DNA of 64,000 bases. Source: a virus. Taxonomy: Duplodnaviria > Heunggongvirae > Uroviricota > Caudoviricetes. The notes beneath the pieces were generated by a model, which worked only from the letters and a program-made list of their open reading frames with translations, did no database searches and was not told where the DNA came from. Below, piece by piece: positions 12,388-37,468 of this stretch (the stretch's first letter is position 1; each line of letters starts with the position of its first letter). Where the stretch lies: positions 1 to 64,000 of IMG/VR virus record IMGVR_UViG_3300031999_000001. One strand, given 5' to 3'. A program made the position numbers and the translations under genes.

Positions 12388-14349
12388 CTATTGTTTTAAA
12401 AAATGTTTAACCTTATCGTCATAAGAATATATTAATTTATCATTAATTTCTTTTTGCACAAGACCTAATCCATTATTATTGCATATGAAACGAAACTGTT
12501 CAACATTTATTGTGTTATTATCCATAGCAAATTTAACAAGCAATTTATATATCCTCAAATGTTTTGTTAAAATATCTTTTGCCCTTTTCTTTTCTTCTGC
12601 TAAAATATTTTCAATTATGTTATTTGTTGAATCAATATCATAATTTAATTCATGTGGTAATGGTGATTCTTTTTTTCCAATTCTTGATATATTTCCATCC
12701 ATACCATACATTCTAACATATTTTCCCGCAACATCTGTTGCATATAATATATCAATTGATGCACCATTTGACTTATATTCTTCACCAAATACAATTTCTT
12801 CCGCAACAAGACCTGCTAAATATATAACCATTTGATTTCTTATAAATGTTTTATTATCAATCAAAGTATGATTAATAACAAAACCATTTGAAAGACCAGC
12901 ACTATTAATATTTATTTGTTTTGGCGGTGTATTAAAAAGTAATGCGTATGTAAGTGCATGACCTAATTCATGAACAGCAAAAAGCATTTTTTCATCTACT
13001 GACTTACTCTCACGAATATTATCAATATCCAAAACAATTTCTTTTGTAATTTTTTTCTTGTTGATTTCACTAAAAAGTATCTTATTTTCGAAATCAAGAT
13101 AGAACTCGTTTACATTGTTTAAGAGAGCATGATACATGAAATGAGGTAGATTACTGCCAAGTACATTGAAAACCGTGGAAATTGCAGGTCTAACCCCTTG
13201 TGTGGGAAATACACCATTCCTATATATCACATCGAAAATATTATTTGATAATGTAATTTTTATGGCGTGTTCTTTTTCAATTCTATTTAAAATTTGATAA
13301 CAATTCTTTTTAATAATTGTATAATAACTTTGCTTATCTAAACAAGGATATATAACATGATTATTACCAAATCTGGCAATTTGTTCCGGTTTAAATTGAG
13401 TGGATAACGCATTTTTTATGTGAACGATATTAATTCGTTTTGATAATTCATGATATACGTCAGCGTCTGTTTCACTATCTTCGATATCATCAGCCATTTT
13501 AAACGCAGTATCAAGATTTCCAGATATAAAAATTAAAAGTTTCTCATATGATTTACCATCATTAACATTTCCAGCTTTTAATGTTTTTTCCATAATTTCC
13601 ATGCGTTCTTCAAGACTCATTCTCATAATTTCTTCTGCAGAGATTTGCAAATTAAGCATTTTTTTAAATCTATTTGCAGTCCAATGAGAAGTTTTGAACC
13701 GATAACTTTTTATTTTTTTTGGAACAGATTTTATCAAATTTTTACCACTTTGTCTTTTTGGTTTGTCTTTGGCTTCTGCTGATACTTCATCAGTATTTTC
13801 TCTTTGGTCAAGCCAATACATTTCTTCAAGCATCATTTCCATAATTTCAACTCTACGTTGTGAATTATTTTGAAATTTACCATCAGAAAGTAACGTCCAG
13901 ACATCATTAAAATATTTATTTTCAAGCATTTCACCTTGTTCATTCAAGGTACGATAACGTTGAATTTCATCAAGTAAAAGTATTGCGGGTTCATTTGAAT
14001 CAATGCCACTATTTTCTAAATAATTTTCAACATTTCTGGCATAATCATTTTTAATATCCATTTGAATTTCAATAAATTTATCATTAAAATTCAAAAGACT
14101 AACAAGGGTACGAACCAAATCTGTTTTACCAACACCAGTAATACCCCATAATGAAATAATAAGTGGTCTGAATTGAATTTTAGGTGTTAAATACCACAAT
14201 GAAATATTATCCATAATTTTGTCAATAACATCATTAATACCAATGAATTTTTCTTTTAAACCTATTTTAACATCTTCAAGTTTTTTTCTTTTGTTTTCAA
14301 TTTCTTTAAGAAATTCATTATTCATAATTTCGGGTTTTATATATATCAT
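12388..14349 (-). CDS. FtsH-like AAA+ ATPase / M41 zinc metalloprotease lacking transmembrane segments
   Basis: Walker A GITGVGKT and Walker B ILLLDEIQ. A second AAA region (LIFISGN ... FKPEQIARFGNNHVIYPCLD) tracks the FtsH box ATNRPD...RPGRFD. The C-terminal peptidase region tracks FtsH closely (AVHELGHALTYALL ~ HEAGHAL; LAGLVAEEIVFGEEYKSNGASIDILYATDVAGKYVRMYGM ~ FtsH LGGRAAEE..FG..TTGASNDIE.AT.IAR.MV..G). No hydrophobic segment is present. Confidence 0.65.
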   Translation of the reverse strand: MIYIKPEIMNNEFLKEIENKRKKLEDVKIGLKEKFIGINDVIDKIMDNISLWYLTPKIQFRPLIISLWGITGVGKTDLVRTLVSLLNFNDKFIEIQMDIKNDYARNVENYLENSGIDSNEPAILLLDEIQRYRTLNEQGEMLENKYFNDVWTLLSDGKFQNNSQRRVEIMEMMLEEMYWLDQRENTDEVSAEAKDKPKRQSGKNLIKSVPKKIKSYRFKTSHWTANRFKKMLNLQISAEEIMRMSLEERMEIMEKTLKAGNVNDGKSYEKLLIFISGNLDTAFKMADDIEDSETDADVYHELSKRINIVHIKNALSTQFKPEQIARFGNNHVIYPCLDKQSYYTIIKKNCYQILNRIEKEHAIKITLSNNIFDVIYRNGVFPTQGVRPAISTVFNVLGSNLPHFMYHALLNNVNEFYLDFENKILFSEINKKKITKEIVLDIDNIRESKSVDEKMLFAVHELGHALTYALLFNTPPKQININSAGLSNGFVINHTLIDNKTFIRNQMVIYLAGLVAEEIVFGEEYKSNGASIDILYATDVAGKYVRMYGMDGNISRIGKKESPLPHELNYDIDSTNNIIENILAEEKKRAKDILTKHLRIYKLLVKFAMDNNTINVEQFRFICNNNGLGLVQKEINDKLIYSYDDKVKHFLKQ

Positions 14350-15727
14350 TATTTATAATCCAAAAATTTATAGCAATTGAAATTGCTAATGCAAACACAT
14401 AAATAAATATTATTGCACCTGTCGATGGCTCTACGGTTAAATAACTAAATTCTTCGAAAGACCTTCTTTGAAATTTATTAAGATTTTGATTCAGATAATT
14501 ATAATAATCATCCCATGTTTGTTCTGTTAACATCGGATATTTTGATTTTATTTTAATTATGGTGTCAGTACTGATTTGCTTTGGAAATGGAAGAACATCA
14601 GGCAATTTTTCTCCAGCTTTACCCAATATGGCTTTTTTTGTTTTTTTATCAATAGGAATTACAGGTGGAAAATTTTCTTTTTTTACTGTACTATCTTTAT
14701 ATGTATAAAGGTTCAGTATTTCGTTTTTTACTTCAGCAGTTAACACATCGGAAGTTGCCCATGAAAATGCATGTGACCATAGTATTTGATTGCCTTTTTT
14801 ACCAATACATACCACTAACTCATTCTTATTGCTTTTAACCCAATAATTTTCCTGATATTGAGCAATTGACCTTGGTTTATTTTCAAATACCAATATCCAA
14901 AGTCTTAATTGGTTACTTACACCAAATTTACCATTGAGTCTTTTAAATTTTTCTTGGGTTTCTTTACTGATATTATCACCTAATATTGTTGGATATTCAA
15001 GACCTTGTGTCATATGAAATAAACTACTGCCTTCATATGATGGATATTTAAATAATCCCATACTGTCAGCTTCTTCTTCTTTAACAAGTTTAATATTAAA
15101 AATGGTTAAATCAGATGCTTTAATACGATTTTCATATGAATGTTGACTTACATATGCTTTACGAGTTTCATCAGTACCATCCCAAGTTGTCTGATATACA
15201 TATGATATTTCTCCCACACGTTTACCTTCGAATTTAGTTCCTTTACTACCAACACATCTATCACGTGATGCAAAATTATTATGAGAATCAATTGATGTTT
15301 TTTTGGTGCGAAATTGTTTTACTAATTCATCATGTTGTTTTTCAGCAATATTAAATTTTTCATTAATATCTGTAACTGCCCACCAAGACGGTCCAACATC
15401 ATCCTGATGTGAACAATCATATGTTTCCGTGCAGTAATTAGTATTTCCTTTGCTATCAGTACCACATGGATAAGTTCTTGTACAAATTTCAGTATGCCAA
15501 TAATTATATGGTTCTTCTTCATATACAGCAGTAACGGTTGAACCCCAATATTCACTAAATTGAACACTGGTATAATTAATAATTAATTTAGAAATTATTA
15601 TTGCAATAAGTACAGACCCAATAGGTATGAAAAATTCCCACCAAGTAAATTCATGTTTTTTTATAAAATAAAAAACTGCTGTTACCAATATGGGAACTAA
15701 TATTGCAAAATAATAAAATTCTGACAT
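14318..15727 (-). CDS. membrane protein (two N-terminal and one C-terminal TM helices, large Cys/Trp/Tyr-rich central domain)
   Basis: Hydrophobic helices at both ends; overlaps the FtsH-like gene by 32 nt, indicating translational coupling. Confidence 0.5.
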   Translation of the reverse strand: MSEFYYFAILVPILVTAVFYFIKKHEFTWWEFFIPIGSVLIAIIISKLIINYTSVQFSEYWGSTVTAVYEEEPYNYWHTEICTRTYPCGTDSKGNTNYCTETYDCSHQDDVGPSWWAVTDINEKFNIAEKQHDELVKQFRTKKTSIDSHNNFASRDRCVGSKGTKFEGKRVGEISYVYQTTWDGTDETRKAYVSQHSYENRIKASDLTIFNIKLVKEEEADSMGLFKYPSYEGSSLFHMTQGLEYPTILGDNISKETQEKFKRLNGKFGVSNQLRLWILVFENKPRSIAQYQENYWVKSNKNELVVCIGKKGNQILWSHAFSWATSDVLTAEVKNEILNLYTYKDSTVKKENFPPVIPIDKKTKKAILGKAGEKLPDVLPFPKQISTDTIIKIKSKYPMLTEQTWDDYYNYLNQNLNKFQRRSFEEFSYLTVEPSTGAIIFIYVFALAISIAINFWIINNDIYKTRNYE

Positions 15728-15729: not shown

Positions 15730-16578
15730 TTATTCGTTTTTAGGTATATAATTCAATAAAAATTCTCTATCTTGTGTAAATGTTGGGCATTCATCGGCAA
15801 CCCATTTACTACGAATGGTTGTTTGTAAACAATCGACAGGTGGCATTCCTTCTGGTAATTTAGGTGTGACAACTACTTCAACCTGTTGTTTAAAAATAAA
15901 TCTACCACGCTTATACTTAGGTGCATAGTCGTTCCAGTTAATACCCTTTTGGAATATCATTTCCTGCTGTTCACTCACATTTTTACCTGCAAGTTCTTTG
16001 TGACTGTAAAGACTCTGTGCAACACTTGAAATGCTATTGCGAACAGTATCTTGCTGTCTCCAAATGAAGTAGTTTTCAACCTCATAGTCACACGGAATGG
16101 TAAATACTCTGGCATCAAATTCAGCAAGTTTAGAACCAAGCACTTCACCAAGAAGAACCTGTTCAAATGCAGTAATTCCATGTGCCTCAATATCAACATT
16201 CATGCTTCCATATGCACGAAATATTCTTAACTGATTGAACTTAGCGGTAGCCATACTTGCAGCAACACTTGCCATTTTCTGGATATTACCGTCAAACCAC
16301 GCATCAGTACCTATCTTATCAAAGTCAGTAAGAAGAATGCTGATTTCATCACTCTGAACGAAACCAAACTTAGCACCCTGCATGTTCTTGCAGAGATAAC
16401 AAGCTGTTTCATCCATGTCAGCAATAAGACCATCATCAAACGGCTTATTCAGTCCACGTGTATATGTGTGGAATGCTTTGCCATCAATGCGAATGATTGT
16501 GTATGTTCTGCGGGGAAGTGTAATACGAGTTCTATCCTCATAATACTTCTTCATCCTATCACCAAATTCGTCTCTCAT
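15730..16578 (-). CDS. Thg1-like protein (tRNA-His guanylyltransferase family, 3'-5' nucleotidyltransferase, TLP)
   Basis: IIRIDGKAFHTY ~ Thg1 VVVRLDGRNFHRF. FGFVQSDEISILL ~ YGQSDEYSFVF. FDARVFTIP..E..NYFIWRQQD ~ FDGRVVVYPS...DYLSWRQAD. Confidence 0.75.
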   Translation of the reverse strand: MRDEFGDRMKKYYEDRTRITLPRRTYTIIRIDGKAFHTYTRGLNKPFDDGLIADMDETACYLCKNMQGAKFGFVQSDEISILLTDFDKIGTDAWFDGNIQKMASVAASMATAKFNQLRIFRAYGSMNVDIEAHGITAFEQVLLGEVLGSKLAEFDARVFTIPCDYEVENYFIWRQQDTVRNSISSVAQSLYSHKELAGKNVSEQQEMIFQKGINWNDYAPKYKRGRFIFKQQVEVVVTPKLPEGMPPVDCLQTTIRSKWVADECPTFTQDREFLLNYIPKNE

Positions 16579-16705
16579 TTTTTTTCTATTATTTTCTCGT
16601 ATTTTTTTTCCATGTCTCTTGCCATTGCAGCAAGTTCGAAATTTTGAATATTGAGGAATGCCACCTTTAATTCACGAATTTTTTTTAAAATTTTCGTAGA
16701 TTCTT

Positions 16706-17569
16706 TCATTGTAATTTGTTATTAAGTTTCTGTTTAAAAAGTTGAACTGTTTTATTACCAATTGCTTTTGATGCTTCTTTGGATTCAATGATTTCTTCAC
16801 GACCTTCCCGGTAAACATCTTCAACCATTGCTTTAATAACCTCACCCATTGATTCCATATTTACATCTGTGGGAAATTTCTGCAATACGTGTTCAAGTCT
16901 GAGATTAGTTACCCATTCTTCTGCAATTGCTTTTGCATCTTCCAAAACTTTTAGTGCTTCGGGACTAATTTCACGTTTAGTTTTAGTTTCCATTTGTTCA
17001 TCTGGCTTGTACTTGCAAATAACCCTTGCACCATTATTAAGACGCATTTCAACAAGTGGACGACAAACAATGCCTTCACGCTTATGGTCGTATCCCATGC
17101 CATTACGAACGGCTTGTATTGAATACATATCTCTTAATGCTGTAAGATTTTCCAATGTAACATCAATTTTGTTATAGTGTACAAATTCAACACCGAATTG
17201 ATAACATACATCTTGTGCATTTGGCACATCAAGCCAATTATCACCGACTTTTACATCAAAGCCAATGAATCTCAGTTCCTTGCCATAAGTATGTGACATA
17301 CCCTGTTGTTTTCCACCATAGGCTTCACCAAAAATAACAACATCAATATCGGGAAATATTTCCTGAAATTTTGATTTTAGAAAATTTTCATTGAATAATG
17401 CCACAAAGTTGTCGTGTTTTTCACCACCACTGGAAAAATGAATTATTTTCTCACTGAACTTCCAGCTTATATGTGCGGATGTGCCATGAATTTTTTCCAT
17501 AGCATAACATTCCTTAAATAAAAGGATTGTCTGGTCTTTGTAAAGGTTGTCAATGTGTAAATATCCCAT
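16706..17569 (-). CDS. RNA ligase, Rnl2 family
   Basis: Nucleotidyltransferase motifs collinear with T4 Rnl2: I EKIHGTS, III VIFGEAYG, IIIa FIGFDV, IV EGIVCRP, V RVICKYK. Confidence 0.8.
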   Translation of the reverse strand: MGYLHIDNLYKDQTILLFKECYAMEKIHGTSAHISWKFSEKIIHFSSGGEKHDNFVALFNENFLKSKFQEIFPDIDVVIFGEAYGGKQQGMSHTYGKELRFIGFDVKVGDNWLDVPNAQDVCYQFGVEFVHYNKIDVTLENLTALRDMYSIQAVRNGMGYDHKREGIVCRPLVEMRLNNGARVICKYKPDEQMETKTKREISPEALKVLEDAKAIAEEWVTNLRLEHVLQKFPTDVNMESMGEVIKAMVEDVYREGREEIIESKEASKAIGNKTVQLFKQKLNNKLQ

Positions 17570-21300: not shown

Positions 21301-22935
21301 TTATAAATCTACTTTAAAACGTAATGCAACTGGAAAACGTGGTTTTTTGTTTTTTCTTGTATAACCTTGATACTGAACTGTTACTATTCTACCAATAACT
21401 AATGATTTGTCATCAGCATATAATTTAAGGTCATCCATTTTACCTTTGAGTTTACAATCAAATGTAATACCTGCTGGTAACTGTTGGTCTTCTTTGGTTC
21501 TTTCACAAATGAACACAGCTTTACCTGCCATGATACCTTTTGTACCTATCTTTATGTCAACAACACGAAATTCGTCATCATCAAATACTTTAACTTTTTG
21601 CAAATCGTATGAACGTTTGTTCACATACATTCCATCAAAGTTTCTGACAATTGCACCTTCATATCCCATTTCCATGAAGTCTTCATAGGCTTGCATCAGT
21701 TCCTCTTTACTGTTAACAATTCTTGATTCAACAATATGAATTGGAGAATTTTCAAATATTGAACGCCATCCTTCAAGTATTAAATACCTATCATAATTTG
21801 TAAGATTTGGAAGTGCTAAATCATAAACATGATATTGAATAACTTCATAACCATCTTGTGGTTCATCGGATGTTATTAAAGAAGTTAGTTTTTCGAATGT
21901 TATTTTTTCTTTTGGAAAATTAAGTACTGCATGATCACCAAATAATTCGAATGCTTTTTTATCATATGCTTTTGCAGCATCTTCAGCAGTATTAAAATAA
22001 CCAATATGAATTTTTTTATAATCATGAGTAATCTGAGCATGCCAATTTTCATCTCTTTTAAAAAACATAACACCTTTATATCCACTTGTATTGTTTATTC
22101 TTTTTTCAGAATTTGCACCATTATTTGATTCAGTAACTAATCTTAGATTACTTTTTCTTGCATCTAATTTATTTCTATTAATATGATCAACATCACTTTC
22201 TGGTAAATCTAAAACTAATTTATGTATATAATAAATTTTATGTTTATATGTTGTAATGGGATATCCATTTCCAGAGATTGTAATTTTATTACCTTGTAAT
22301 TTAGGTAAATCTTCTTCATCAAGAAAAACAATATTTCCATTAATATTAAATTCAAGAAATGGTATTTCTATTGATTTATTTTCTTGAATATTAATATCTG
22401 GATGCCATAATTCACCATCAAATCTATCAGCAAGTCCACAATTTTCTAAAGTATTGACAATATGAGGAATTGTTAAAATTTGTTTACGGGTTCTACTCCA
22501 CATAGTTACCTTTCCAATGTCATACTGACTGGTGCAACGGTGTCCATCCAATTTAGGTTGTGCTATTGCAGGAAATTTAATTTTATGCCCTTGTTCCCAA
22601 AATTTATGGGCAAGAATTGGAAATACACCACCTTCAATAATTGCATCGGTTGTACCTGCTTGTGCATCTTCAATACTCTGAACATAACCTTTTTTGAGTT
22701 GTTTATCCCATCTGGCTTTGGCTTGAAATATACCTTGTTCAATTGGAGTTGTTTCATTTGATCTACCAGTATTTTTACCTGATAAAACCTGTTCATGGCT
22801 GTATTGAATTTTACCCCCAACCTGACCAAATCTGTTGATTATGGTAGAGATGCCATTGATTTCATCAACACTGACTGTCCATTCTTGAATAGCACCAGTA
22901 CTGGTTTTCTTGTAAAGTTTTGGAAATTCTTTCAT
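21301..22935 (-). CDS. ATP-dependent DNA ligase carrying an in-frame HNH-AP2 endonuclease domain insertion
   Basis: Ligase motifs I KLDGHR, III FDGELW, IIIa YHVYDL, IV EGAIVR and V LQKVK, plus an OB-fold tail. About 180 aa (nt ~21858..22398) between motifs III and IIIa form an HNH (VDHINRNKLDARKSNLR) plus AP2 (SGYKGV...WHAQI...IGYFNTAEDAAKAYD) unit. Confidence 0.75.
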   Translation of the reverse strand: MKEFPKLYKKTSTGAIQEWTVSVDEINGISTIINRFGQVGGKIQYSHEQVLSGKNTGRSNETTPIEQGIFQAKARWDKQLKKGYVQSIEDAQAGTTDAIIEGGVFPILAHKFWEQGHKIKFPAIAQPKLDGHRCTSQYDIGKVTMWSRTRKQILTIPHIVNTLENCGLADRFDGELWHPDINIQENKSIEIPFLEFNINGNIVFLDEEDLPKLQGNKITISGNGYPITTYKHKIYYIHKLVLDLPESDVDHINRNKLDARKSNLRLVTESNNGANSEKRINNTSGYKGVMFFKRDENWHAQITHDYKKIHIGYFNTAEDAAKAYDKKAFELFGDHAVLNFPKEKITFEKLTSLITSDEPQDGYEVIQYHVYDLALPNLTNYDRYLILEGWRSIFENSPIHIVESRIVNSKEELMQAYEDFMEMGYEGAIVRNFDGMYVNKRSYDLQKVKVFDDDEFRVVDIKIGTKGIMAGKAVFICERTKEDQQLPAGITFDCKLKGKMDDLKLYADDKSLVIGRIVTVQYQGYTRKNKKPRFPVALRFKVDL

Positions 22936-23800: not shown

Positions 23801-24958
23801 TCAACAATTCTCCAATGTATATTGAAAACCCTTATCTGAATAACATGGAAATTTAAAATTTATACCACAATATGAACCAATTTCATTAAAATTCACTGTA
23901 ATTAATTTACCTTTTTTTGTTACTGGAATTGCTTCGGGGTTAACTTGGTCAAGACAAGTAATTACCATACTTCTTCGTGAAATAGGATTATGATATTTAT
24001 CACATTCAACAGCATATTTCAATAAATCCAAATCAAGTACAGTTTTTCTGAAAGTTCCCTGATAACATTCATTTATATTGGTTTCATTGGGATTTTCTTT
24101 AATGTATGATGTATCAAGTCTTTCATTGGTCATATATCCATTACCATGACGTGTTTGATATGCACGTGTTACATAATAAGTTTTTAAATTTTTCTTATCA
24201 ATAAAAATTCCATATTTATTTATAATTTCTATTGCATTTTTTGATGTGGTATTACTTCTTGTAACATGTGGAAAAAAACCATAATTAGCATCTAACATAA
24301 TGCCCTGACCGCCTTCAAAAATCCAATCATTATCCATGAAACCATATAAATCATTAACAATATTATATCTGGTAACAAGGTCATCACATGCAATAATAAA
24401 ATCATCATAGAGTTTTTTGATATAGGCATGTTGATGTTCATTTTCTGGATTAAAATTTAACCTATAATATATATTCATTATAAGTCTGAGTTTTTCATTA
24501 CGGATTGCGGGATAAAATAAATCCCTGACATAAAGATGATAATGATCTTCATTTCTTTGAATTGTTGTTCCAAATCCTACACCAACACTACCATGATTAT
24601 TTTTTTCTTCAAGTTTATGATTTTGCAATATATCAAATGGTGTTGTAATCATTGCATTGGCATTAAGATATAATATTGGATTTACATCCATTTCTCTTAA
24701 CACCTTACCTTCTTTTAATATTCCAACAGGACTTACCGTACAATATTCTGACCAATAAGTTGGTACATTTAAAAGTGTACCTGAACCAAAATTAGAAAAT
24801 ACATGTCTTTTATCATTGGTAATAACAGTATGTCCAGATTGATGACCTGAATTATGTCTTATAACTAATGGATTTTTTGCTTTTGAACACAAATAATTAA
24901 CAAAAGAACCCTTGCCTTCATCACCATATAAACATCCGAGAATTACATATATATTCAT
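23801..24958 (-). CDS. adenylosuccinate synthetase family protein (PurA/PurZ homologue)
   Basis: N-terminal VILGCLYGDEGKGS (PurA P-loop GDEGKGK). RHNSGHQSGHTV ~ GGHNAGHT. GFGTTIQRNEDHY ~ GTTGRGIGPAYEDK. EGGQGIMLDANYGFFPHVTRSNTT ~ [24 protein letters not shown]. At 385 aa it is shorter than bacterial PurA (~430 aa). Confidence 0.8.
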   Translation of the reverse strand: MNIYVILGCLYGDEGKGSFVNYLCSKAKNPLVIRHNSGHQSGHTVITNDKRHVFSNFGSGTLLNVPTYWSEYCTVSPVGILKEGKVLREMDVNPILYLNANAMITTPFDILQNHKLEEKNNHGSVGVGFGTTIQRNEDHYHLYVRDLFYPAIRNEKLRLIMNIYYRLNFNPENEHQHAYIKKLYDDFIIACDDLVTRYNIVNDLYGFMDNDWIFEGGQGIMLDANYGFFPHVTRSNTTSKNAIEIINKYGIFIDKKNLKTYYVTRAYQTRHGNGYMTNERLDTSYIKENPNETNINECYQGTFRKTVLDLDLLKYAVECDKYHNPISRRSMVITCLDQVNPEAIPVTKKGKLITVNFNEIGSYCGINFKFPCYSDKGFQYTLENC

Positions 24959-27307: not shown

Positions 27308-28282
27308 TTATTTTTTTACACCCTTATCATTAAAAATCAAAAATTCAAATTCAAATCCTCTATCAATCACAGATTGTCTTTTTATATTAATTAAATCCAT
27401 ATTTAAATTTATTGTATATGTTGACTTTATTTCAAATATTTTATGTTTACTTTTAACATATATATCTGGGAAATATCTACGATTTTTATTTTTCTTTATA
27501 TCATAAAACCAAAAAGTACCAATTTCTTTTTCAATTTCTTTATTGCCAATAATAATATCATTTTCATTTATACTTTCACTTAATAAATATTCAATTCCAT
27601 AATTTTCATATCCTTGAATTTTAACAATTCTTCCTGATGGTAACACATATTTTTTTGCACAAATACCAGTAAGCAATTTTTTATCCATTACTTCTGAAAC
27701 TTGACTAACATTGGTGAATGTAATTCCATATTTTTTTTGAATTGTTTTTATGCATTCATCATGAACTTCTTTTGATTGAAATGGATAATCTACTCCATAA
27801 TGTTTTCTACTTGTGGCAATTTTTTTATTTTTAATTATAAGAGATTTGGACACATTATCAACTCCAAAATGTTTGATTGATGTATTCATTTTTTTATTTT
27901 TTATAATATCGGATTGAGAAATATTATCAACACCATATTTTTTTCTACATTTTTCAATTTTTTTTATTTTAGATATGTTTAATTGTGAAATATTATTAAC
28001 ATTATATTTTTCCTTTAAAAATTTTTTGGTACGTTTTATTCGACATTTTGAAGAACACACAAATCCCCTTTTACATCTCATATATTGTTTAAATGGTACT
28101 TTAACTTCTTTTTGACATTCTTCACAAATACATGAAACAATTTCATTACTATCAGGATTTAATTCAGATGATTTAATTTCAATAATATCACCATATTTAC
28201 AATTAATGCCACATTTTCTATAAAATTTCTTATTATTACCATAAATTTTTACTTTATGAATTTGTTCAATTAAATTTTTCAT
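27308..28282 (-). CDS. zinc-ribbon / repeat / PD-(D/E)xK-like putative DNA-binding nuclease
   Basis: N-terminal Cys cluster (CxxC..CxxC). Five ~25-aa repeats K(K/H)YGVDN(I/V)SQS..IIKNKK. C-terminal FPDIYVKSKHKIFEIKS (D-x10-E-x-K). Confidence 0.4.
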   Translation of the reverse strand: MKNLIEQIHKVKIYGNNKKFYRKCGINCKYGDIIEIKSSELNPDSNEIVSCICEECQKEVKVPFKQYMRCKRGFVCSSKCRIKRTKKFLKEKYNVNNISQLNISKIKKIEKCRKKYGVDNISQSDIIKNKKMNTSIKHFGVDNVSKSLIIKNKKIATSRKHYGVDYPFQSKEVHDECIKTIQKKYGITFTNVSQVSEVMDKKLLTGICAKKYVLPSGRIVKIQGYENYGIEYLLSESINENDIIIGNKEIEKEIGTFWFYDIKKNKNRRYFPDIYVKSKHKIFEIKSTYTINLNMDLINIKRQSVIDRGFEFEFLIFNDKGVKK

Positions 28283-28313
28283 GATTTTCTTTTTCTATAA
28301 ATACTTAAGAAAA

Positions 28314-28934
28314 TCATTTTCTATCGTCATCCAGTATAATATATCTATTTTTCAATCCGATGTTGAGTTCTTTGGCAATTATTCTCAGATTTGTTTTGGC
28401 GATGTTCAGACGATATTCCGTATTACGAATTTCGTTTTCAAGTTGATTGGCTTCTTTAAGCAATATTTGTTTGAACTCCGGGTCAGTAGATTTAATTACT
28501 TCTTTATGAATATCATTTTCTCCTGACATCCACATCCATTCAGGAAGTTCATTGTGTATTGCCGTACCAATATTATTTGAATATGTTGCACAAGAATTTG
28601 CTTGTTTGAAAGTATTGATACTATAATCTTTATCACGGATAAGATATCTTACAGGAAATTGTTTAAAATATTCAATGTCTTCAGCATCAATTTGTTTTTG
28701 ATATTCTTCATATGTTTTAACACTTATTCCTTCACCATAAAAATAATTAAAAAACTTTTTTAATTCATTTCTGAATTCTTCAAGTTCTTCCTGATTATCA
28801 AAATAAAAATCTTCTTCAAGTTTCCATTGGGATTCATTGATGCCAACTGATGGGTCACCTTTAGCTGTAATGTAAAAACCAGTTATTTTCATAATTTTTG
28901 ATATATTTTTTAAGAATTTTTTTGTAATTTTCAT
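28314..28934 (-). CDS. hypothetical protein
   Basis: ORF only. Confidence 0.4.
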   Translation of the reverse strand: MKITKKFLKNISKIMKITGFYITAKGDPSVGINESQWKLEEDFYFDNQEELEEFRNELKKFFNYFYGEGISVKTYEEYQKQIDAEDIEYFKQFPVRYLIRDKDYSINTFKQANSCATYSNNIGTAIHNELPEWMWMSGENDIHKEVIKSTDPEFKQILLKEANQLENEIRNTEYRLNIAKTNLRIIAKELNIGLKNRYIILDDDRK

Positions 28935-28945
28935 AATATTAATTG

Positions 28946-29122
28946 TTAATTAAGACTTGGATGTTCAATAACTTCATATCCAAAATCACGCAGAATTTCA
29001 CGCACAACATACCACTCGCCATTAAATTCCAATGCATCAACAGTTGATTGTGGTGCATTACTGTGAAATTTAATAATCTTTTCATTTATATCATCATGAT
29101 ATGTGCGTAATTCAATTTTCAT
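28946..29122 (-). CDS. small hypothetical protein (58 aa)
   Basis: Below the ORF-track threshold; promoter copy F sits 9 nt upstream. Confidence 0.25.
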   Translation of the reverse strand: MKIELRTYHDDINEKIIKFHSNAPQSTVDALEFNGEWYVVREILRDFGYEVIEHPSLN

Positions 29123-29130
29123 AATAATGT

Positions 29131-29161
29131 TTTATACGAATTATATTATAAAAGGTTACAT
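29131..29161 (-). promoter_or_regulatory. conserved phage promoter-like motif, copy F (ATGTAA-N19-TATAAA)
   Basis: TGTAAC and TTCGTATA cores conserved. Confidence 0.4.
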
Positions 29162-29692
29162 TTTTTCTTGTTTTATTATCTTAAGTTCGTACAAATATAG
29201 AAAAAGAAATTAATAAAACAATAAAAAGTATTTATCTTTTTAGGAATATTTGTAATAAGATCAAAAATAATTCGTATTATTGTAAAAATTATAAATATTC
29301 AGATTTATAAAAATTATCTTATATTTAATTAATTTTAAAATGAATGAATCATGGTGGTTTTTAATTGGAATTGCATCATTTATAATAATTGCGTTTACTT
29401 TATTAAAATATGGACTTTTTACTCAATCTAAAAGAAAAAAGAAATTGTAATTAGTATGCAGAGTATGTTGCTAAACAATTAAATAAGAAAACTGTATGGG
29501 TAGAATAAATGATGATTATGGTCCTGATTTAAAAAAGGAAGATATTAATATATATTTTAATATACATATTAATATTGAGATGAGTAAAGAAAATGTGTTA
29601 AATAAAAATGAACCTGACAATATATGTATAATATAATACATATTTCTTGCATTTTCAGATAATATGGTTTATATTAGCACAAATTTTAAATT

Positions 29693-30262
29693 ATGAAAAA
29701 CTTAGGACATTTAATGCTTGATCTTGAAACGATGGGCAAGCGAGCAGGATGTGCAATTGTATCAATTGGTGCAATCGAATTCGATTTGGAAACTGGTGAA
29801 ATGGGCAGAAAATTTTATGAACCTGTCGATCTTCAGTCTTGTTTAAATGTTGGTCTTTTTGTAGAAGCCAGTACAATTTATTGGTGGATGATGCAAAACG
29901 AAGAAGCAAGAAAAGAACTTTGTAAACCTGCCGTTAGTATTCAAAATGTTTTAGTGGCATTTACTTCATTTTTACATTGTCTTGGTGATTTTCAGCTTTG
30001 GGGAAATGGTGCAAGTTTTGATATGTCAATTCTTGAAGCAGCGTATTTTGCTATTGGTCTGGGAGAAATATTACCTTGGAAATTCAGAAATGAAAGAGAT
30101 GTTCGTACTTTAGTTTCTTTTGCTCCCGAAATCAAAGACAATTATCGTAAAATGGGAATAACGCATTGCGCTATTGATGATTGTAAACACCAAATTGAAT
30201 ATTGTGTTGCTATTTGGCAAAAATTAAAAAGTAATCATCTTACATCGCTTTCATTAAAATAA
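29693..30262 (+). CDS. DEDDh 3'-5' exonuclease (oligoribonuclease/ExoX-like)
   Basis: Exo I LMLDLETMG, Exo II WGNGASFDMSIL, Exo III HCAIDDCKHQ. The N-terminus resembles Orn (LIWIDLEMTGL). Confidence 0.6.
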   Translation: MKNLGHLMLDLETMGKRAGCAIVSIGAIEFDLETGEMGRKFYEPVDLQSCLNVGLFVEASTIYWWMMQNEEARKELCKPAVSIQNVLVAFTSFLHCLGDFQLWGNGASFDMSILEAAYFAIGLGEILPWKFRNERDVRTLVSFAPEIKDNYRKMGITHCAIDDCKHQIEYCVAIWQKLKSNHLTSLSLK

Positions 30263-30281
30263 ATTTTATAATAAGCATTAT

Positions 30282-30656
30282 ATGATAAAATGGAAAGAAG
30301 AATTTAAAAAATATCTTGCAAAAAAATTTAATGAAAAAATGGGGTATGAGATTAACCCCCAAAATATACATTCTATTGAAATAAATACTGAAATTAAAAT
30401 TGATTTATTGTCCGTTGAAGATTTGGCATTTACTTATGCTTTTGCAATAATGGACGAAAATTTTGAGCAGGCAAAGTTTATCAATGATGAATTTACCAAA
30501 AGAAATTGTGAGATTAAAATTAATATTGACGAAAAAAATCATTGTGGTACAATTGATGTTTATCAACTACCTGAAATTAGTTGTGCGTTATTGTCAATAT
30601 CTTTGAAAGTTTTACCAGATGGTATGATGATTGATTTTGAAAAACAAAATTTATAA
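30282..30656 (+). CDS. hypothetical protein
   Basis: ORF only. Confidence 0.4.
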   Translation: MIKWKEEFKKYLAKKFNEKMGYEINPQNIHSIEINTEIKIDLLSVEDLAFTYAFAIMDENFEQAKFINDEFTKRNCEIKINIDEKNHCGTIDVYQLPEISCALLSISLKVLPDGMMIDFEKQNL

Positions 30657-30662
30657 AATAAT

Positions 30663-31013
30663 ATGGAAAATTTAAAAACTGAAAAATTTAAAGAAAAAAT
30701 ATTTAATTTCATTGATAATACTGAATGGAATTTTATTGGAAATAAGCCTGTAATAATTGATTTTTATACCGATTGGTGTAGTCCATGTAAAAGAGTTGCT
30801 CCAATTCTTGAAGAACTCAGCACTGAATATTTAAGCATTGATTTTTATAAAGTAAATGCTGAAAATGAAAATGAATTGGCTACATTTTTTCATATTAAAA
30901 GTGTTCCTTCAATACTTTTTATACCATTAACAGGAACACCACAAATGGTAGTGGGTGGTGTTCCAAAAGGAATTTTAAAAGAAAAAATTAAAAATATTTT
31001 CAATATTGATTAA
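30663..31013 (+). CDS. trx: thioredoxin
   Basis: FYTDWCSPCKRVAP (WCxPC active site) in a ~115 aa protein. Confidence 0.8.
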   Translation: MENLKTEKFKEKIFNFIDNTEWNFIGNKPVIIDFYTDWCSPCKRVAPILEELSTEYLSIDFYKVNAENENELATFFHIKSVPSILFIPLTGTPQMVVGGVPKGILKEKIKNIFNID

Positions 31014-31028
31014 TATTTTCTCATTTTT

Positions 31029-31059
31029 TTGTAACATTTTAATTTATTTTTCGTATAAT
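31029..31059 (+). promoter_or_regulatory. conserved phage promoter-like motif, copy G (TTGTAA-N19-TATAAT)
   Basis: TTTCGTATAAT; 19 nt upstream of the ATG at 31079. Confidence 0.5.
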
Positions 31060-31078
31060 ACTTTAAATAATTACAAAA

Positions 31079-31879
31079 ATGACAAAGAAAAAAATAGTGA
31101 TTGACCCGCAGAAACATGCTGAAATGCTTTTGGAAAGAGAATTCACTGAAATCAAAGAAAACATTGCTTTTGGTATATTACCATTAAATCCCACAAGATT
31201 TTTTAAGGTTGGTGAACAGGTACAATTTGGTGCACATCATGAAACCTATATTCGTGAAATCTTTGAAAATGGATTATATTATAAAATTGAATCAATCGGT
31301 GTTCAACGTGAAAGAGATAAGCCACCTGTAAATGAATTTTATGTACTTGGATGGCATGATATATTTCCTATTGGTTGTTCTGGTCAAACTAAATTTGCAA
31401 AAAAAGAAGAACATTTTCTCAGCCTTTCAAATACTTCACTGGAGTCTTTATTATTTAAGGTGTATGGTGCTGGTGTCGATTTTGATGTTGATTATCAGCG
31501 TGATCATGTATGGACACTTGCAGATAAAATTGCCCTTATTGATAGTATTTTCAATAATATTGATATTGGTAAATTTGTTTTTGTTCAACGTAATATGGGT
31601 TATAATGGTAAACTTTATGAAGTTATTGATGGCAAACAAAGACTTACTGCCATTTATGAATTTTATGAAGATAGATTTCAATATAATGGTTTTTATTATT
31701 CACAATTGTCATTTGAAGATAAAAATAAATTTAAAAATCATGGAATTACTTACGGATATTTGGAAAATCCAAATAAAAGAAGTATATTTGAAACCTTTAT
31801 TAAACTTAATACTTGTGGAAAGCCAATGGCATTGAAACATATTGATAAAGTAAAAAAATTATTAGATGAACTTGGATAA
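31079..31879 (+). CDS. DUF262 (ParB-like / GmrSD N-terminal) domain protein
   Basis: YQRDHVW ... IDGKQRLTAI matches the DUF262 DGQQR motif; standalone, with no DUF1524/HNH partner. Confidence 0.55.
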   Translation: MTKKKIVIDPQKHAEMLLEREFTEIKENIAFGILPLNPTRFFKVGEQVQFGAHHETYIREIFENGLYYKIESIGVQRERDKPPVNEFYVLGWHDIFPIGCSGQTKFAKKEEHFLSLSNTSLESLLFKVYGAGVDFDVDYQRDHVWTLADKIALIDSIFNNIDIGKFVFVQRNMGYNGKLYEVIDGKQRLTAIYEFYEDRFQYNGFYYSQLSFEDKNKFKNHGITYGYLENPNKRSIFETFIKLNTCGKPMALKHIDKVKKLLDELG

Positions 31880-32261
31880 ACCCATAATTATACTTGATTT
31901 AGATGGAGTTATGTGCACCACACGTCAATATTATACCAATAAGAAAAAATGGCATCCAATATATGATTGTTATCGTTTTGATGAAAAATGTGTTAAGGTA
32001 CTCAATATTATAATTGAAAAAACAAATCCTATTATTGTACTTTCAAGTGATTGGAAAGACCATTATACCATTAATATGTTGAATGGAATATTTGAATGGA
32101 ATAAGGTTAATGCTAAAGTTTCTGATGTCACATCATCTTCTTGGGGTGTTCAGTTCACAAGTTTGCAACAATTGGAAGAATGTCGTTCATATGAAATCAA
32201 TAAATATCTTATATGTTCCACCAAAGGAATATGCAACAATACCAGATTCGTTAATTCGTAA
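31866..32261 (+). CDS. HAD-superfamily phosphatase-like protein
   Basis: Motif I IIILDLDGVM near the N-terminus; small size. Confidence 0.4.
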   Translation: MNLDKPIIILDLDGVMCTTRQYYTNKKKWHPIYDCYRFDEKCVKVLNIIIEKTNPIIVLSSDWKDHYTINMLNGIFEWNKVNAKVSDVTSSSWGVQFTSLQQLEECRSYEINKYLICSTKGICNNTRFVNS

Positions 32262-32276
32262 ATTACCATTTTAATT

Positions 32277-32522
32277 ATGAAAACAACATTATTAAAAATT
32301 CTTTGGAAAAAAGAAATTATTCATTGGAAACGAATTGGACAGATGTTCAAAAAATTCAATAGTTGGATAAGTAAATTAACTTTTGGTTTGATTGTTGCTG
32401 TTTTTATTACAATATTTCATTATGCATTTGCAATAATGCATACACTATATGAAATATTTTTGTTTATCTTTGCAAAACAATCATTTCAAGCTAATTTACA
32501 AAAATTAATATTAAAAGTATGA
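32277..32522 (+). CDS. small membrane protein
   Basis: One to two hydrophobic helices. Confidence 0.3.
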   Translation: MKTTLLKILWKKEIIHWKRIGQMFKKFNSWISKLTFGLIVAVFITIFHYAFAIMHTLYEIFLFIFAKQSFQANLQKLILKV

Positions 32523-33037
32523 GTTTGTTTGTAACAGATGTAGAATCAGATGGACAGATAATTGGAAAGCATAGTATTGTGTGCTTTGGTGTGGTTAAAC
32601 TAACTCCTGAATTAGATACAACTTTTTATGGTCAAATAAAGCCAATTTCTGATGAATGGATACCAAGCGCACTTGAAGTAAGTGGTTTTAGTCGTGAAGA
32701 ACATTTGAAATTTGATGAACCATTTATTGTTATGGATAATTTTGCTAATTGGTTAAAAGAACATTCTGTTGGCAGACCAATATTAATATCCGATAATAAT
32801 GGATATGATGCTTCATGGATTAATTATTATTTTCATGTTTATCATCATGGCAATCCCTTCGGATGGAGTTCACGTAGAATCGGTGACTTGTATTGTGGTA
32901 TGATGAAAGATACATATGCAAGCTGGAAAAAATTAAGAATAACTAAGCATTCTCATCATCCGGTTGATGATGCAATGGGTAATGCCGAAGCATTATTAAA
33001 AATGAAAGAAATGGGTTTGAAAATTGATACAAAATAA
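32519..33037 (+). CDS. DEDD-family 3'-5' exonuclease-like protein
   Basis: FVTDVESDG (Exo I D-x-E) and HHPVDDAMGN (Exo III H-x4-D). Confidence 0.45.
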   Translation: MSLFVTDVESDGQIIGKHSIVCFGVVKLTPELDTTFYGQIKPISDEWIPSALEVSGFSREEHLKFDEPFIVMDNFANWLKEHSVGRPILISDNNGYDASWINYYFHVYHHGNPFGWSSRRIGDLYCGMMKDTYASWKKLRITKHSHHPVDDAMGNAEALLKMKEMGLKIDTK

Positions 33038-33043
33038 ATTAAA

Positions 33044-33343
33044 ATGTTTGATTTTTTAAAAAATATATTATTTTTGATTCCAATAATGATATATTATCTT
33101 ATAGAATCAATAATTCTTGCACTTTTTATTAATTTAGTTTGGAAACTTATTTTACAATCAAAATTTAATATTTATCTATCATATCTTGATTGGGTTGCAA
33201 TAATCTGGATTATTAAAGTAGTATTTTTTGATATTTTTAAGTTGCTTGGTAATTTTTTCAATGTGATTTATGAGAAAATAGAAGGAATTGAAAAAGACCG
33301 AATTAATAAACAAAATAATAGCACTGGATATAAGACAAATTAA
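33044..33343 (+). CDS. membrane protein
   Basis: Multiple hydrophobic helices. Confidence 0.35.
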   Translation: MFDFLKNILFLIPIMIYYLIESIILALFINLVWKLILQSKFNIYLSYLDWVAIIWIIKVVFFDIFKLLGNFFNVIYEKIEGIEKDRINKQNNSTGYKTN

Positions 33344-33345
33344 TT

Positions 33346-33567
33346 ATGAAATACATAAAAAAAACACCAAGAATAATCGTTAAATTTATTAATGCTGATA
33401 CTGAGGAAATTCTTTTTGAAATAAAAGATAAAACTTGGATGGATGTTGGACAAAATTTCAGTGATTTTAATGTAAGTTCAATACTCACACAAGAACTAAA
33501 AAACAAATCAGTACCAAAAAATATTCTTATAATAGCAGTGGGGGAATTTAAATTAGTTAATTCTTGA
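33346..33567 (+). CDS. hypothetical protein
   Basis: ORF only. Confidence 0.25.
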   Translation: MKYIKKTPRIIVKFINADTEEILFEIKDKTWMDVGQNFSDFNVSSILTQELKNKSVPKNILIIAVGEFKLVNS

Positions 33568-33711
33568 CTTTTTAAATGCTGATTTATTGCAACAATACCA
33601 GACCCAACTAATACAAGCAATTAATTTATTATTTATAAAGGATATGTACACATTATACCCACCCGTACACAAATTGTGTACAACATAAATATTTAAAATA
33701 TATGCTTTTTT

Positions 33712-33742
33712 TTGTAACATTTTTAAATTATTTTCGTATAAT
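33712..33742 (+). promoter_or_regulatory. conserved phage promoter-like motif, copy H (TTGTAA-N19-TATAAT)
   Basis: TTTTCGTATAAT; 26 nt upstream of the ATG at 33769. Confidence 0.5.
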
Positions 33743-33768
33743 TGATTGTAACATTAAATTTAAAGAAA

Positions 33769-34602: not shown

Positions 34603-34604
34603 TA

Positions 34605-35054
34605 ATGATTAAGGTTGTTCCATTTATTCAAACAATAAATAGCGAGAGATTTAAAGAATTTCTCGCCAAACCTTTTACCATTGATATGTTATATCCCGTA
34701 TTTAACAATAAGTCAGTTGAAACCCTTTTTGAAGGATGGCGTGGAAAGGATATGAATAACTGGTACAGATTCACCAATGAAGAAAATTTTATTCTTGAAT
34801 TTTATTTAAATTATTATATTATAAAAAAAGAAGCAAAGACATTTAAAGCAAATGATGTTGTAAAATATCAAATGCCAATACCAAGAAATATTAATGATTT
34901 TATCAATGATATGTATAGATTTGGAATTCAACTTTATTGGACAAAATGGATTGATGAAAACTTTGAACCAAAAGATTATCTTGATAAAGATATGATTTTC
35001 AAATACTATAAAGACTTGTTATTTAAAATGGGCAAATTTAACGATTTGCAATAA
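34605..35054 (+). CDS. hypothetical protein
   Basis: ORF only. Confidence 0.4.
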   Translation: MIKVVPFIQTINSERFKEFLAKPFTIDMLYPVFNNKSVETLFEGWRGKDMNNWYRFTNEENFILEFYLNYYIIKKEAKTFKANDVVKYQMPIPRNINDFINDMYRFGIQLYWTKWIDENFEPKDYLDKDMIFKYYKDLLFKMGKFNDLQ

Positions 35055-35058
35055 TTAT

Positions 35059-35853: not shown

Positions 35854-35856
35854 TAT

Positions 35857-37312: not shown

Positions 37313-37326
37313 ATTTCGATTTTAAG

Positions 37327-37380: not shown

Positions 37381-37468
37381 ACCAGAACACCTTAAAGAGA
37401 TATTAATGCGTACAATCGAAGATAATAAGCCAATTTTGTCATAATTTATCACCTGCTGATGTTATTCA

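What the first reader, a model, noticed from the sequence alone, without database searches (positions are those of the whole stretch)
12388..15727. Phage-encoded FtsH-like AAA+/M41 protease lacking its own membrane anchor, translationally coupled to a three-TM membrane protein
ORF 12388..14349 combines an AAA+ module (Walker A GITGVGKT, Walker B LLLDEIQ, second-region-of-homology-like FKPEQIARFGNNH) with a peptidase region. The peptidase region aligns well to the FtsH M41 domain: AVHELGHAL matches the zinc-binding helix, and LAGLVAEEIVFGEEYKSNGASIDILYATDVAGKYVRMYGM matches FtsH LGGRAAEE..FG..TTGASNDIE.AT.IAR.MV. Cellular FtsH has two N-terminal TM helices and this protein has none. Instead, the gene just upstream on the minus strand (14318..15727) overlaps it by 32 nt and encodes two N-terminal and one C-terminal TM helices around a large Cys/Trp-rich domain. 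This could be a split, membrane-tethered FtsH-type machine brought by the phage, for example to degrade host proteins or to regulate the lysis/lysogeny-like proteolysis normally done by host FtsH. A ~260 aa insertion separates the Walker B and sensor regions.
Basis: partly seen in the sequence, partly recalled or inferred. Interest (0 to 1): 0.7.

Follow-up and report, generated by a model that had tools for sequence, protein, structure and literature searches.

The report
Soluble Clp-motor/FtsH-protease fusion in phage
A large uncultured phage encodes a membrane-free, ATP-driven zinc protease whose cutting domain is FtsH-type but whose motor is Clp/Hsp100-type; it belongs to a large family I found no study of, present in big phages and in some bacteria, and the neighbouring membrane protein is not its conserved partner.

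Summary

The ATPase half is not FtsH-type. By sequence and by fold it matches the second nucleotide-binding domain (D2) of Clp/Hsp100 proteins (ClpB, ClpA, ClpX, Skd3). It carries a ~105-115 aa helical insertion, not ~260 aa. No pore-loop aromatic is conserved.

The protein scores 60.8 bits against a 600-bit cut-off on the FtsH equivalog model, so it is not an FtsH orthologue. It belongs to a large family of ~640 aa proteins: 875 representatives of 50%-identity clusters at E<=1e-30, 168 IMG/VR contigs (many 200-550 kb), and at least 547 matching stretches in bacterial reference genomes. I found no paper on it.

The upstream 3-TM gene (phrog_2087) abuts the protease only in part of the closest clade: 2/2, 13/41, 1/13 and 0/150 loci as identity falls. 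Its homologues also occur in phages with no detectable relative of the protease. The "split membrane-tethered FtsH" reading is therefore not supported.

Best reading: a soluble, self-contained AAA+ metalloprotease. Its substrates are unknown.

The parts
12388..14349 (-). ORF for the AAA+/M41 protease. It is 653 aa from the first ATG; the probable true start is M9 at 14325, giving 645 aa.
   Evidence: homologues start MNxEFL. The 8-nt ATGAATAA overlap with the upstream stop also occurs in L003.
14122..14145 (-). Walker A, GITGVGKT (res 69-76).
   Evidence: G69, T71, G72, G74, K75 and T76 are invariant in the 36-sequence family alignment A2.
13960..13980 (-). Walker B, LLLDEIQ (res 124-130). It is followed by the family-specific conserved QR[FY]RT motif.
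   Evidence: D127, E128 and Q130 are invariant.
13552..13869 (-). Helical insertion of about 105 aa (res ~161-266) between the DGKF motif and the sensor-1 strand. It consists of a long helix (164-195), a low-confidence, variable, charged linker (~196-221) and three short helices (222-258).
   Evidence: query 169-294 lies opposite ClpB 709-720. AF2 model with pLDDT 86; the linker is variable.
13516..13539 (-). Sensor-1 strand, LLIFISGN (res 271-278; N278).
   Evidence: G277 and N278 are invariant. Assigned as sensor-1 by position (strand 271-278 in the model) and from my recollection of the ClpB D2 sequence; one search's alignment does not cover this stretch.
13357..13395 (-). Arg-finger motif, FKPEQIARFGNNH (res 319-331; R326). 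It is the counterpart of the ClpB D2 motif FRPEFINRIDE.
   Evidence: alignment. F319, E322, I324, R326 and G328 are invariant.
13030..13341 (-). Small (lid) subdomain resembling ClpB_D2-small, including the sensor-2 motif GVRP (res 385-388, nt 13186..13197).
   Evidence: PF10431 scores 17.2 bits, below threshold. PF10431 is precomputed in many homologues; matches to the ClpB/ClpA/ClpV C-terminal region. R387 and P388 are invariant.
12391..13008 (-). Peptidase M41 domain (res 448-653). It holds HELGH (nt 12958..12972) and the third zinc ligand, D533, within GASID (nt 12751..12765).
14318..15727 (-). Upstream neighbour: a 469 aa membrane protein of family phrog_2087. TM helices lie at res 4-22 (nt 15662..15718), ~30-50 (15578..15640) and 439-457 (14357..14413). 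A Cys cluster lies at res 82-105. This is a clade-limited neighbour, probably not part of the protease machine.
15730..17569 (-). Context: a Thg1-like tRNA-His guanylyltransferase (15730..16578) and an RNA ligase (16706..17569). These two gene types recur upstream of the protease in the close relatives examined.

Best explanation
ORF 12388..14349(-) encodes a soluble, self-contained, ATP-dependent zinc metalloprotease.

Architecture:
- An N-terminal helical region.
- A Clp/Hsp100-D2-type (HCLR-clade) AAA+ module. It carries a ~105 aa helical arm inserted before the sensor-1 strand.
- A C-terminal FtsH-type M41 peptidase domain.

Inferred mechanism, by analogy with FtsH and Clp machines, not shown here:
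- It assembles as a hexamer, with an ATPase ring stacked on an M41 ring.
- ATP hydrolysis feeds cytoplasmic substrates to the HExxH/Asp zinc sites.
- The inserted arm and N-terminal helices probably recruit substrates or adaptors, much as the HslU I-domain or the ClpB M-domain do.

It is not membrane-anchored and does not need the upstream 3-TM protein. That gene is an accessory insertion between the Thg1-like gene and the protease, found in a subset of one phage clade.

Biological role (inference only): the gene sits in the replication/RNA-repair gene block. The likely role is remodelling of the host or phage proteome during infection, for example removing host regulators or defence proteins. 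Substrates are unknown.
For: Domain identity:
- Pfam M41 at 64 bits.
- PDB FtsH protease domains at E 1e-13.

Catalytic and ATPase residues invariant across 36 sequences down to 33% identity:
- Walker A and Walker B.
- N278, R326 and R387.
- H460, E461, H464, E517 and D533.

Clp-D2 type of motor:
- phmmer of residues 1-440 hits only ClpB, Clp and Lon chains and no FtsH ATPase domain. The VIGQ-like, FRPEFxNR and GARP motifs align.
- The NCBIfam ClpA, ClpB and ClpV models match residues ~260-425 across family members. The FtsH model matches only the protease part.
- Foldseek gives TM 0.60-0.68 to ClpB NBD2.

Solubility:
- No TM segment in the window protein.
- No TM segment in nearly all of ~160 family members.

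Independence from the membrane gene:
- Adjacency is 2/2, 13/41, 1/13 and 0/150 as identity falls.
- The upstream gene varies among close relatives.
- The membrane family occurs without the protease in Tenacibaculum and Lak phages.
- No neighbour is conserved across the family.

Selection for function:
- 875 representatives of 50%-identity clusters at E<=1e-30.
- 168 IMG/VR contigs.
- At least 547 matching stretches in bacterial genome contigs, in housekeeping neighbourhoods.
Against: - No biochemical data exist. Hexamer formation, unfoldase activity and proteolysis are all inferred.
- The pore-loop-1 region (res ~97-106) varies in length and sequence and has no conserved aromatic-hydrophobic motif. 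That is unusual for a processive unfoldase.
- The structure is a monomer AF2 model from 36 sequences: pLDDT 86, with the 189-212 linker at low confidence.
- The biological role in infection is a guess from gene position only.
- Where the membrane gene is present, it always lies immediately upstream. A clade-specific interaction is therefore not excluded.
Confidence: 0.7

Rival explanations
1. First reader's model. The protease is one half of a split FtsH-type machine. The translationally coupled 3-TM protein (14318..15727) supplies the missing membrane anchor and tethers the hexamer to the inner membrane.
For: - The two genes overlap, by 8 or 32 nt.
- Whenever a homologue of the membrane gene is present in a protease locus, it lies immediately upstream. 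This holds in all 16 such loci, with a 12-70 nt gap or an 8-nt overlap in those measured.
- At least 18 contig lengths are shared between the two top-120 hit lists.
- In Chryseobacterium an unrelated membrane protein (DUF4407) also abuts the protease gene.
Against: - Adjacency is absent in 28/41 loci at 65-75% identity, in 12/13 at 50-65% and in 150/150 below 50%.
- Close relatives have a Thg1-like gene, a likely homing-endonuclease gene, a likely transposase gene or a small soluble ORF upstream instead.
- TM-bearing upstream neighbours are no commoner than background among viral loci: 12 of 83 loci against 12% of all ORFs.
- The membrane family occurs in Tenacibaculum, Lak and Xanthomonas phages. 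No full-length relative of the protease was found in any phage record.
- The positive-inside count (4 vs 2 K/R) and the Cys cluster suggest that the large domain faces outward. That would leave only an ~8 aa loop and a short C-tail in the cytoplasm, and the C-tail is not conserved. This topology is a weak inference.
- Tight gene packing is general in this block.
Confidence: 0.1
2. The ATPase is not a threading unfoldase. It acts as a nucleotide-dependent switch or remodeller, like Torsin. It gates the M41 site toward one or a few specific substrates through the inserted arm, giving site-specific processing rather than processive degradation.
For: - Pore-loop 1 is not conserved and lacks the GYVG-type aromatic.
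- The window protein is ~14 residues shorter than ClpB between the IQMD strand and Walker B.
- Family-specific motifs are conserved instead: QR[FY]RT and F.D[IV]W.LLSDGK.
Against: - Walker B, sensor-1, the Arg finger and sensor-2 are all invariant, which indicates an active hydrolysing ring.
- The M41 fold matches the FtsH protease domain closely. In FtsH that domain forms a degradation chamber (established knowledge).
- The AF2 model shows a short hairpin after Walker B (~res 135-141) that could act as a pore loop.
Confidence: 0.15
3. It is simply a phage copy of cellular FtsH that has lost its TM helices, that is, a truncated orthologue captured from the host.
For: - JGI annotates many homologues as 'cell division protease FtsH'.
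- Whole-length Foldseek alignments to FtsH reach E 5e-11.
- FtsH-like genes have been reported in the jumbo phages MIJ3 and PA5oct (PMC6892783).
Against: - The FtsH equivalog model TIGR01241 scores 60.8 bits against a 600-bit cut-off and matches only the protease part.
- The ATPase gives no FtsH hit at E<=1.
- The phage collection gave only partial matches, within query residues 387-627, to the phage-borne FtsH genes such as those of MIJ3 and PA5oct.
- Bacterial members of the family have the same TM-less ~640 aa architecture and sit in ordinary chromosomal neighbourhoods. The architecture is therefore old and not a phage truncation.
Confidence: 0.03

Closest known systems
FtsH / Yme1 / AFG3L2 (MEROPS M41; TIGR01241)
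   Same: - A single polypeptide with an AAA+ module followed by an M41 zinc peptidase.
- HExxH plus an Asp ligand.
- The AEE...FG...GASxD...AT block aligns.
   Different: - No N-terminal TM helices or periplasmic domain.
- The ATPase is not the classic-clade AAA with SRH and an FVG pore loop. It is Clp-D2-like.
- The equivalog score is a tenth of the cut-off.
- There is an extra ~105 aa insertion.
Clp/Hsp100 second nucleotide-binding domain (ClpB/ClpA/ClpC NBD2, Skd3, ClpX, HslU; HCLR clade)
   Same: - The pre-Walker-A 'xIGxxxxI' helix, Walker A and B, and the DGK/R motif.
- The FRPEFxNR-type Arg finger and the GxRP sensor-2.
- A D2-small-like lid.
- These are the best sequence and fold matches for residues 1-440.
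   Different: - Fused to a protease domain in cis, instead of docking on ClpP or HslV. The tools here cannot show whether it could dock ClpP.
- The GYVG pore loop is missing.
- A ~105 aa helical insertion precedes the sensor-1 strand.
- Pfam AAA_2 is not reached at threshold.
Lon protease (LonA/LonB)
   Same: - A soluble or self-contained HCLR-clade AAA+ module fused in cis to its protease domain.
- A single-gene ATP-dependent protease.
- Weak sequence hits to the Lon ATPase.
   Different: - The protease domain is a Ser-Lys S16 fold in Lon and a zinc M41 fold here.
- No Lon N-domain.
FtsH-like genes of the jumbo phages PA5oct and MIJ3, and of Microcystis phage MaAM05
   Same: A phage-borne AAA+/M41 gene of unknown role (PMC6892783).
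   Different: - They match only within query residues 387-627, the peptidase half, at 25-30% identity.
- They are annotated as FtsH in their records.
- They do not belong to this family.

Membership tests
FtsH (TIGR01241 equivalog) | Two N-terminal transmembrane helices flanking a periplasmic domain. | tested here: not met
   No segment with KD19 >= 1.6; the maximum is 1.15. The same holds for nearly all of ~160 family members.
FtsH (TIGR01241 equivalog) | Classic-clade AAA module (PF00004 full length, SRH, FVG pore loop). | tested here: not met
FtsH (TIGR01241 equivalog) | Whole-protein score above the curated cut-off. | tested here: not met
   60.8 bits against a cut-off of 600. The match covers only model positions 412-597.
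Peptidase family M41 (PF01434) | Domain score above the gathering threshold, with HExxH and the downstream Asp zinc ligand. | tested here: met
Clp/Hsp100 D2-type (HCLR clade) AAA+ | Walker A/B, sensor-1 Asn, FRPEFxNR-type Arg finger, GxRP sensor-2 and a D2-small lid. | tested here: met
   Aligned to ClpB D2, apart from the sensor-1 Asn, which is assigned by position. The residues are invariant. The ClpA, ClpB and ClpV models hit this region across family members. PF10431 is sub-threshold here (17.2 against 21.9) but is recorded in many homologues.
Clp/Hsp100 D2-type (HCLR clade) AAA+ | Pre-sensor-1 beta-hairpin. | tested here: inconclusive
   The AF2 model shows single bridge residues near 158 and 267, flanking the helical insertion. 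That fits a hairpin with an insertion at its tip, but it rests on the model alone.
Clp/Hsp100 D2-type (HCLR clade) AAA+ | Conserved aromatic-hydrophobic pore-loop 1 (GYVG). | tested here: not met
   The region between the IQMD strand and the next helix varies in length and sequence across 36 members.
Hypothesised split, membrane-tethered FtsH-type two-gene system | The membrane partner is conserved next to (co-inherited with) the protease. | tested here: not met
   Adjacency is 2/2 (>=75% identity), 13/41 (65-75%), 1/13 (50-65%) and 0/150 (<50%). No neighbour cluster is shared across the family.
Hypothesised split, membrane-tethered FtsH-type two-gene system | A conserved cytoplasmic docking element on the membrane protein. 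| tested here: inconclusive
   The C-terminal tail after TM3 varies in length and sequence. Topology was inferred only from a charge count. No interaction prediction was possible.
phrog_2087 (the 469 aa membrane protein) | Profile match. | tested here: met
   E 4.7e-24 over residues 4-350. Homologues occur in Tenacibaculum phages PTm1, PTm5 and pT24, in Lak phages and in Xanthomonas phage X1.

The most novel reading that the evidence does not exclude
This family may be a previously unrecognised class of soluble, single-chain ATP-dependent protease: a Clp/Hsp100-D2-type motor fused in cis to an FtsH-type M41 zinc chamber. [quoted passage not shown] It appears to be vertically inherited in Bacteroidota and Comamonadaceae and repeatedly present in jumbo phages, which may use it for host takeover or counter-defence. 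The inserted helical arm would be its substrate or adaptor receptor.
Probability: 0.5. Interest if true: 0.7.

Novelty: new variant of a known kind. Interest (0 to 1): 0.55.

Why it matters
- A widespread family that pairs an HCLR-clade motor with the M41 chamber, without a membrane anchor, would show that protease and motor modules have been shuffled between those machines.
- It would also give Bacteroidota, Comamonadaceae and many jumbo phages an unstudied cytosolic degradation route.
- For phage biology it would be a virus-encoded protein-destruction machine, with obvious candidate roles in host shut-off or anti-defence.
- On the practical side, these genes are currently labelled 'cell division protease FtsH' or 'AAA family ATPase'. 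Both labels are misleading.

Tried and rejected
1. Megablast of the region against 50,697 phage records gave no match. tblastn gave only partial matches, within query residues 387-627 (peptidase half), to true FtsH genes.
2. The first related-loci run, with the single protein, found nothing. An alignment query was needed.
3. The first AF2 model, from 18 close sequences, was poor (pLDDT 62.6) and was discarded. The 36-sequence alignment gave pLDDT 86.2.
4. PADLOC gave no defence-system match for the protease, the membrane protein or the downstream ORF.
5. I tested for an ArfA-like identity of the small basic ORF upstream of the Comamonadaceae homologues. There was no Pfam hit even at E<=10, so the idea was dropped.
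6. I tested for Bacteroidota-type promoter enrichment. TANNTTTG is not enriched (99 matches against 136 expected), so it supports no host inference.
7. I asked whether membrane-protein neighbours are a recurring theme across the family. They are not commoner than background among viral loci (12 of 83 loci against 12% of ORFs). The Chryseobacterium DUF4407 case is lineage-specific.
8. Literature searches found no paper on this architecture. The only related item is the MIJ3/PA5oct FtsH-like report.
9. The afdb50 fold library was unavailable. BFVD held no viral structure above 17% identity to the model.
10. The exact-sequence contig look-up for the window protein returned nothing, so the sample and habitat remain unknown.
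Full report
**1. Observation**

Both ORFs exist as described, on the minus strand: 12388..14349 (653 aa) and 14318..15727 (469 aa). All quoted motifs are present at residues 69-76 (GITGVGKT), 124-130 (LLLDEIQ), 319-331 (FKPEQIARFGNNH), 460-464 (HELGH) and 529-533 (GASID).

Homologues begin at MNxEFL. The real start is therefore probably M9, at ATG 14325. That start overlaps the upstream stop by 8 nt (ATGAATAA), exactly as in the relative L003.

The protease has no hydrophobic segment (maximum 19-residue Kyte-Doolittle score 1.15). The upstream protein has three TM helices, at 4-22, about 30-50 and 439-457. It is Trp-rich (2.8%) but has only six Cys, four of them in a C-x5-C-x10-C-x5-C cluster.

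**2. The protease half is M41**

- Pfam Peptidase_M41 scores 64.2 bits, E 1.9e-17, against a gathering score of 29.9, over residues 452-620.
- H460, E461, H464, E517 and D533 are invariant in an alignment reaching 33% identity. D533 aligns with the Asp of the FtsH GAxND block. That Asp is the third zinc ligand in FtsH crystal structures; this last point is my own knowledge.

**3. The ATPase half is not FtsH-type**

- PF00004 matches only its first 79 positions.
- Residues 1-440, searched alone against PDB sequences, hit ClpB, Clp and Lon chains. They hit no FtsH ATPase domain at E<=1.
- Three elements align with ClpB D2: the pre-Walker-A helix (KFIGINDVIDKI with RVIGQNEAVDAV), the Arg-finger motif (FKPEQIARF with FRPEFINRI) and sensor-2 (QGVRP with YGARP).
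- NCBIfam shows the same split in six family members. The FtsH models match only the protease part. The ClpA, ClpB and ClpV models match residues ~260-425 in five of the six. The FtsH equivalog scores 60.8 bits against a cut-off of 600.
- Foldseek gives TM 0.60-0.68 to ClpB NBD2.

The 'second region of homology' reading is therefore wrong.

The insertion is smaller than claimed. Query residues 169-294 lie opposite ClpB residues 709-720. In the model, a helical arm (helix 164-195, a low-confidence charged linker, helices 222-258) sits between DGKF and the sensor-1 strand LLIFISGN. That makes about 105-115 aa, not ~260.

One oddity remains. The pore-loop-1 region varies in length and sequence and has no conserved aromatic. 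The motifs QR[FY]RT and F.D[IV]W.LLSDGK are conserved instead.

**4. The family**

- HMMER against 1.84 billion cluster representatives finds 875 at E<=1e-30. Almost all of those listed are ~620-700 aa and match end to end.
- The window's protein is on a 200,057-bp JGI contig. Relatives sit on contigs of up to 345 kb.
- IMG/VR holds 168 confirmed stretches, many on contigs of 200-550 kb.
- The family is also chromosomal in bacteria. At least 547 stretches in GTDB species-representative genomes encode a relative. They include isolates of Chryseobacterium, Arcicella, Acidovorax, Polaromonas and Delftia, and many Saprospiraceae MAGs.
- In the bacterial loci examined the neighbours are ordinary genes. 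HflX-type GTPase domains were confirmed by Pfam. RuvC-, IMPDH- and ArgA-like genes were judged by eye from their N-termini.
- A rough NJ tree places the Betaproteobacteria and Bacteroidota copies in two largely contiguous blocks among very diverse phage copies.
- No record in the 50,697-record phage collection has a full-length member.
- BFVD holds no viral structure above 17% identity to the model.
- PADLOC gives nothing.
- Eight literature searches found no description of this architecture. The only phage 'FtsH-like' report, on MIJ3 and PA5oct, concerns a different protein. It matches this one only within the peptidase half.

**5. The membrane protein**

It belongs to phrog_2087, a family of unknown function.

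Among all fetched loci with at least 1.4 kb upstream of the protease, a homologue is present as follows:

| Protease identity to the window protein | Loci with the membrane gene | Loci examined |
|---|---|---|
| >=75% | 2 | 2 |
| 65-75% | 13 | 41 |
| 50-65% | 1 | 13 |
| <50% | 0 | 150 |

- When present, it always lies immediately upstream.
- Close relatives that lack it have other genes directly upstream: a Thg1-like gene with a 4-nt overlap, a likely homing-endonuclease gene, a likely transposase gene, a 109 aa or 94 aa soluble ORF, or an unrelated 58 aa 2-TM ORF.
- Clustering of all neighbours shows no partner conserved across the family.
- TM-bearing upstream genes are not commoner than background among viral loci.
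- Conversely, homologues of the membrane protein occur in Tenacibaculum phages PTm1, PTm5 and pT24, in Lak megaphages and in Xanthomonas phage X1. The two Tenacibaculum loci inspected have no such protease next door. No relative of the protease was detected in any of these records.
- The charge count (4 K/R against 2) weakly favours an outward-facing large domain. The tail after TM3 is not conserved.
- Gene overlap is the norm in this block. For example, 2 nt separate the Thg1-like stop from the membrane gene's start.

A clade-specific interaction cannot be excluded, and I rate it at about 0.1.

**6. Mechanism**

Shown:
- An intact Clp-D2-type ATPase fused to an intact M41 zinc site.
- No membrane anchor.
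- Conservation of this architecture across phages and bacteria.

Inferred:
- A hexameric ATPase ring on an M41 ring that degrades cytoplasmic proteins.
- Substrate or adaptor docking through the inserted arm and N-terminal helices.

The missing pore-loop aromatic keeps open a rival in which the ATPase gates site-specific cleavage rather than threading (rated about 0.15).

The role in infection is a guess from position in the replication and RNA-repair block. Nearby genes include RNA ligase, Thg1-like, DNA ligase, a Dda-like helicase and SbcCD-like proteins.

**7. Verdict**

The 'FtsH minus anchor plus split membrane partner' interpretation does not hold. What is there is a member of a large family that carries misleading labels and for which I found no published study. 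The family is a new variant of AAA+ protease architecture. It is neither an FtsH orthologue nor a two-gene machine.

Noticed in passing
window 23801..24958 (-): A 385 aa adenylosuccinate-synthetase-like ORF. Pfam PF00709 scores 138 bits, and phrog_1211 (labelled '2-aminooxy adenylosuccinate synthetase') matches at E 6.6e-50. From my own knowledge it resembles the PurZ-type enzymes of phages that replace adenine with 2-aminoadenine. That would hint at a Z-base genome. PurZ was not distinguished from PurA here.
   Followed up: partly
window 15730..17569 (-); L005, L007, L009, L014, L019, L020: A tRNA-repair-like pair, Thg1-like guanylyltransferase plus RNA ligase, sits directly upstream of the finding. 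These two gene types recur next to the protease in the close relatives examined. In some relatives the RNA ligase appears to be interrupted by an intein or homing-endonuclease-like insert (L014, L020; judged by eye). In relatives the nearby helicase carries an intein with a LAGLIDADG domain (L005: 897 aa, against 471 aa in the window).
   Followed up: partly
window 21301..22935 (-): An ATP-dependent DNA ligase ORF with an HNH endonuclease domain embedded at residues ~219-348 (phrog_114 plus phrog_99).
   Followed up: no
L148:7658-7888, L122:7601-7846, L093:7596-7862: In Comamonadaceae and other Burkholderiales genomes, a conserved 76-88 aa basic ORF ends 0-1 nt before the start of the bacterial homologue of the protease. 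It contains the motif ...RMKQP..L......RNPV..AL.... It has no Pfam hit even at E<=10. It could be a dedicated partner or regulator of the bacterial enzyme.
   Followed up: partly
L144:6931-8004 and 12 other Chryseobacterium loci: A DUF4407 membrane protein (312 bits in L144) lies directly upstream of the Chryseobacterium homologue, with a 1-nt overlap or a 14-nt gap. This is a second, unrelated, lineage-specific pairing of a membrane gene with the protease.
   Followed up: partly
window 12355, 19234, 23774, 51964 (- strand): TATATTTG lies 5-40 nt upstream of several minus-strand start codons. From my own knowledge it resembles the Bacteroidota -7 promoter element TAnnTTTG. The degenerate motif is not enriched in the window overall (99 matches against 136 expected).
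   Followed up: partly
L088 (JAKPTO010000038.1), L089 (JBAZIW010000032.1): MAG contigs labelled 'bacterium' and 'Candidatus Paceibacterota' carry 70-71% identical copies of the protease. L089 has the same Thg1-like-then-protease order as the IMG/VR phage contig L019, and L088 has phage-like neighbours. They are probably mis-binned phage contigs.
   Followed up: no
window ~28000..38000: GC skew changes sign and the genes switch to the + strand (ORFs 29693..37047). Minus-strand gene blocks flank this stretch on both sides.
   Followed up: no
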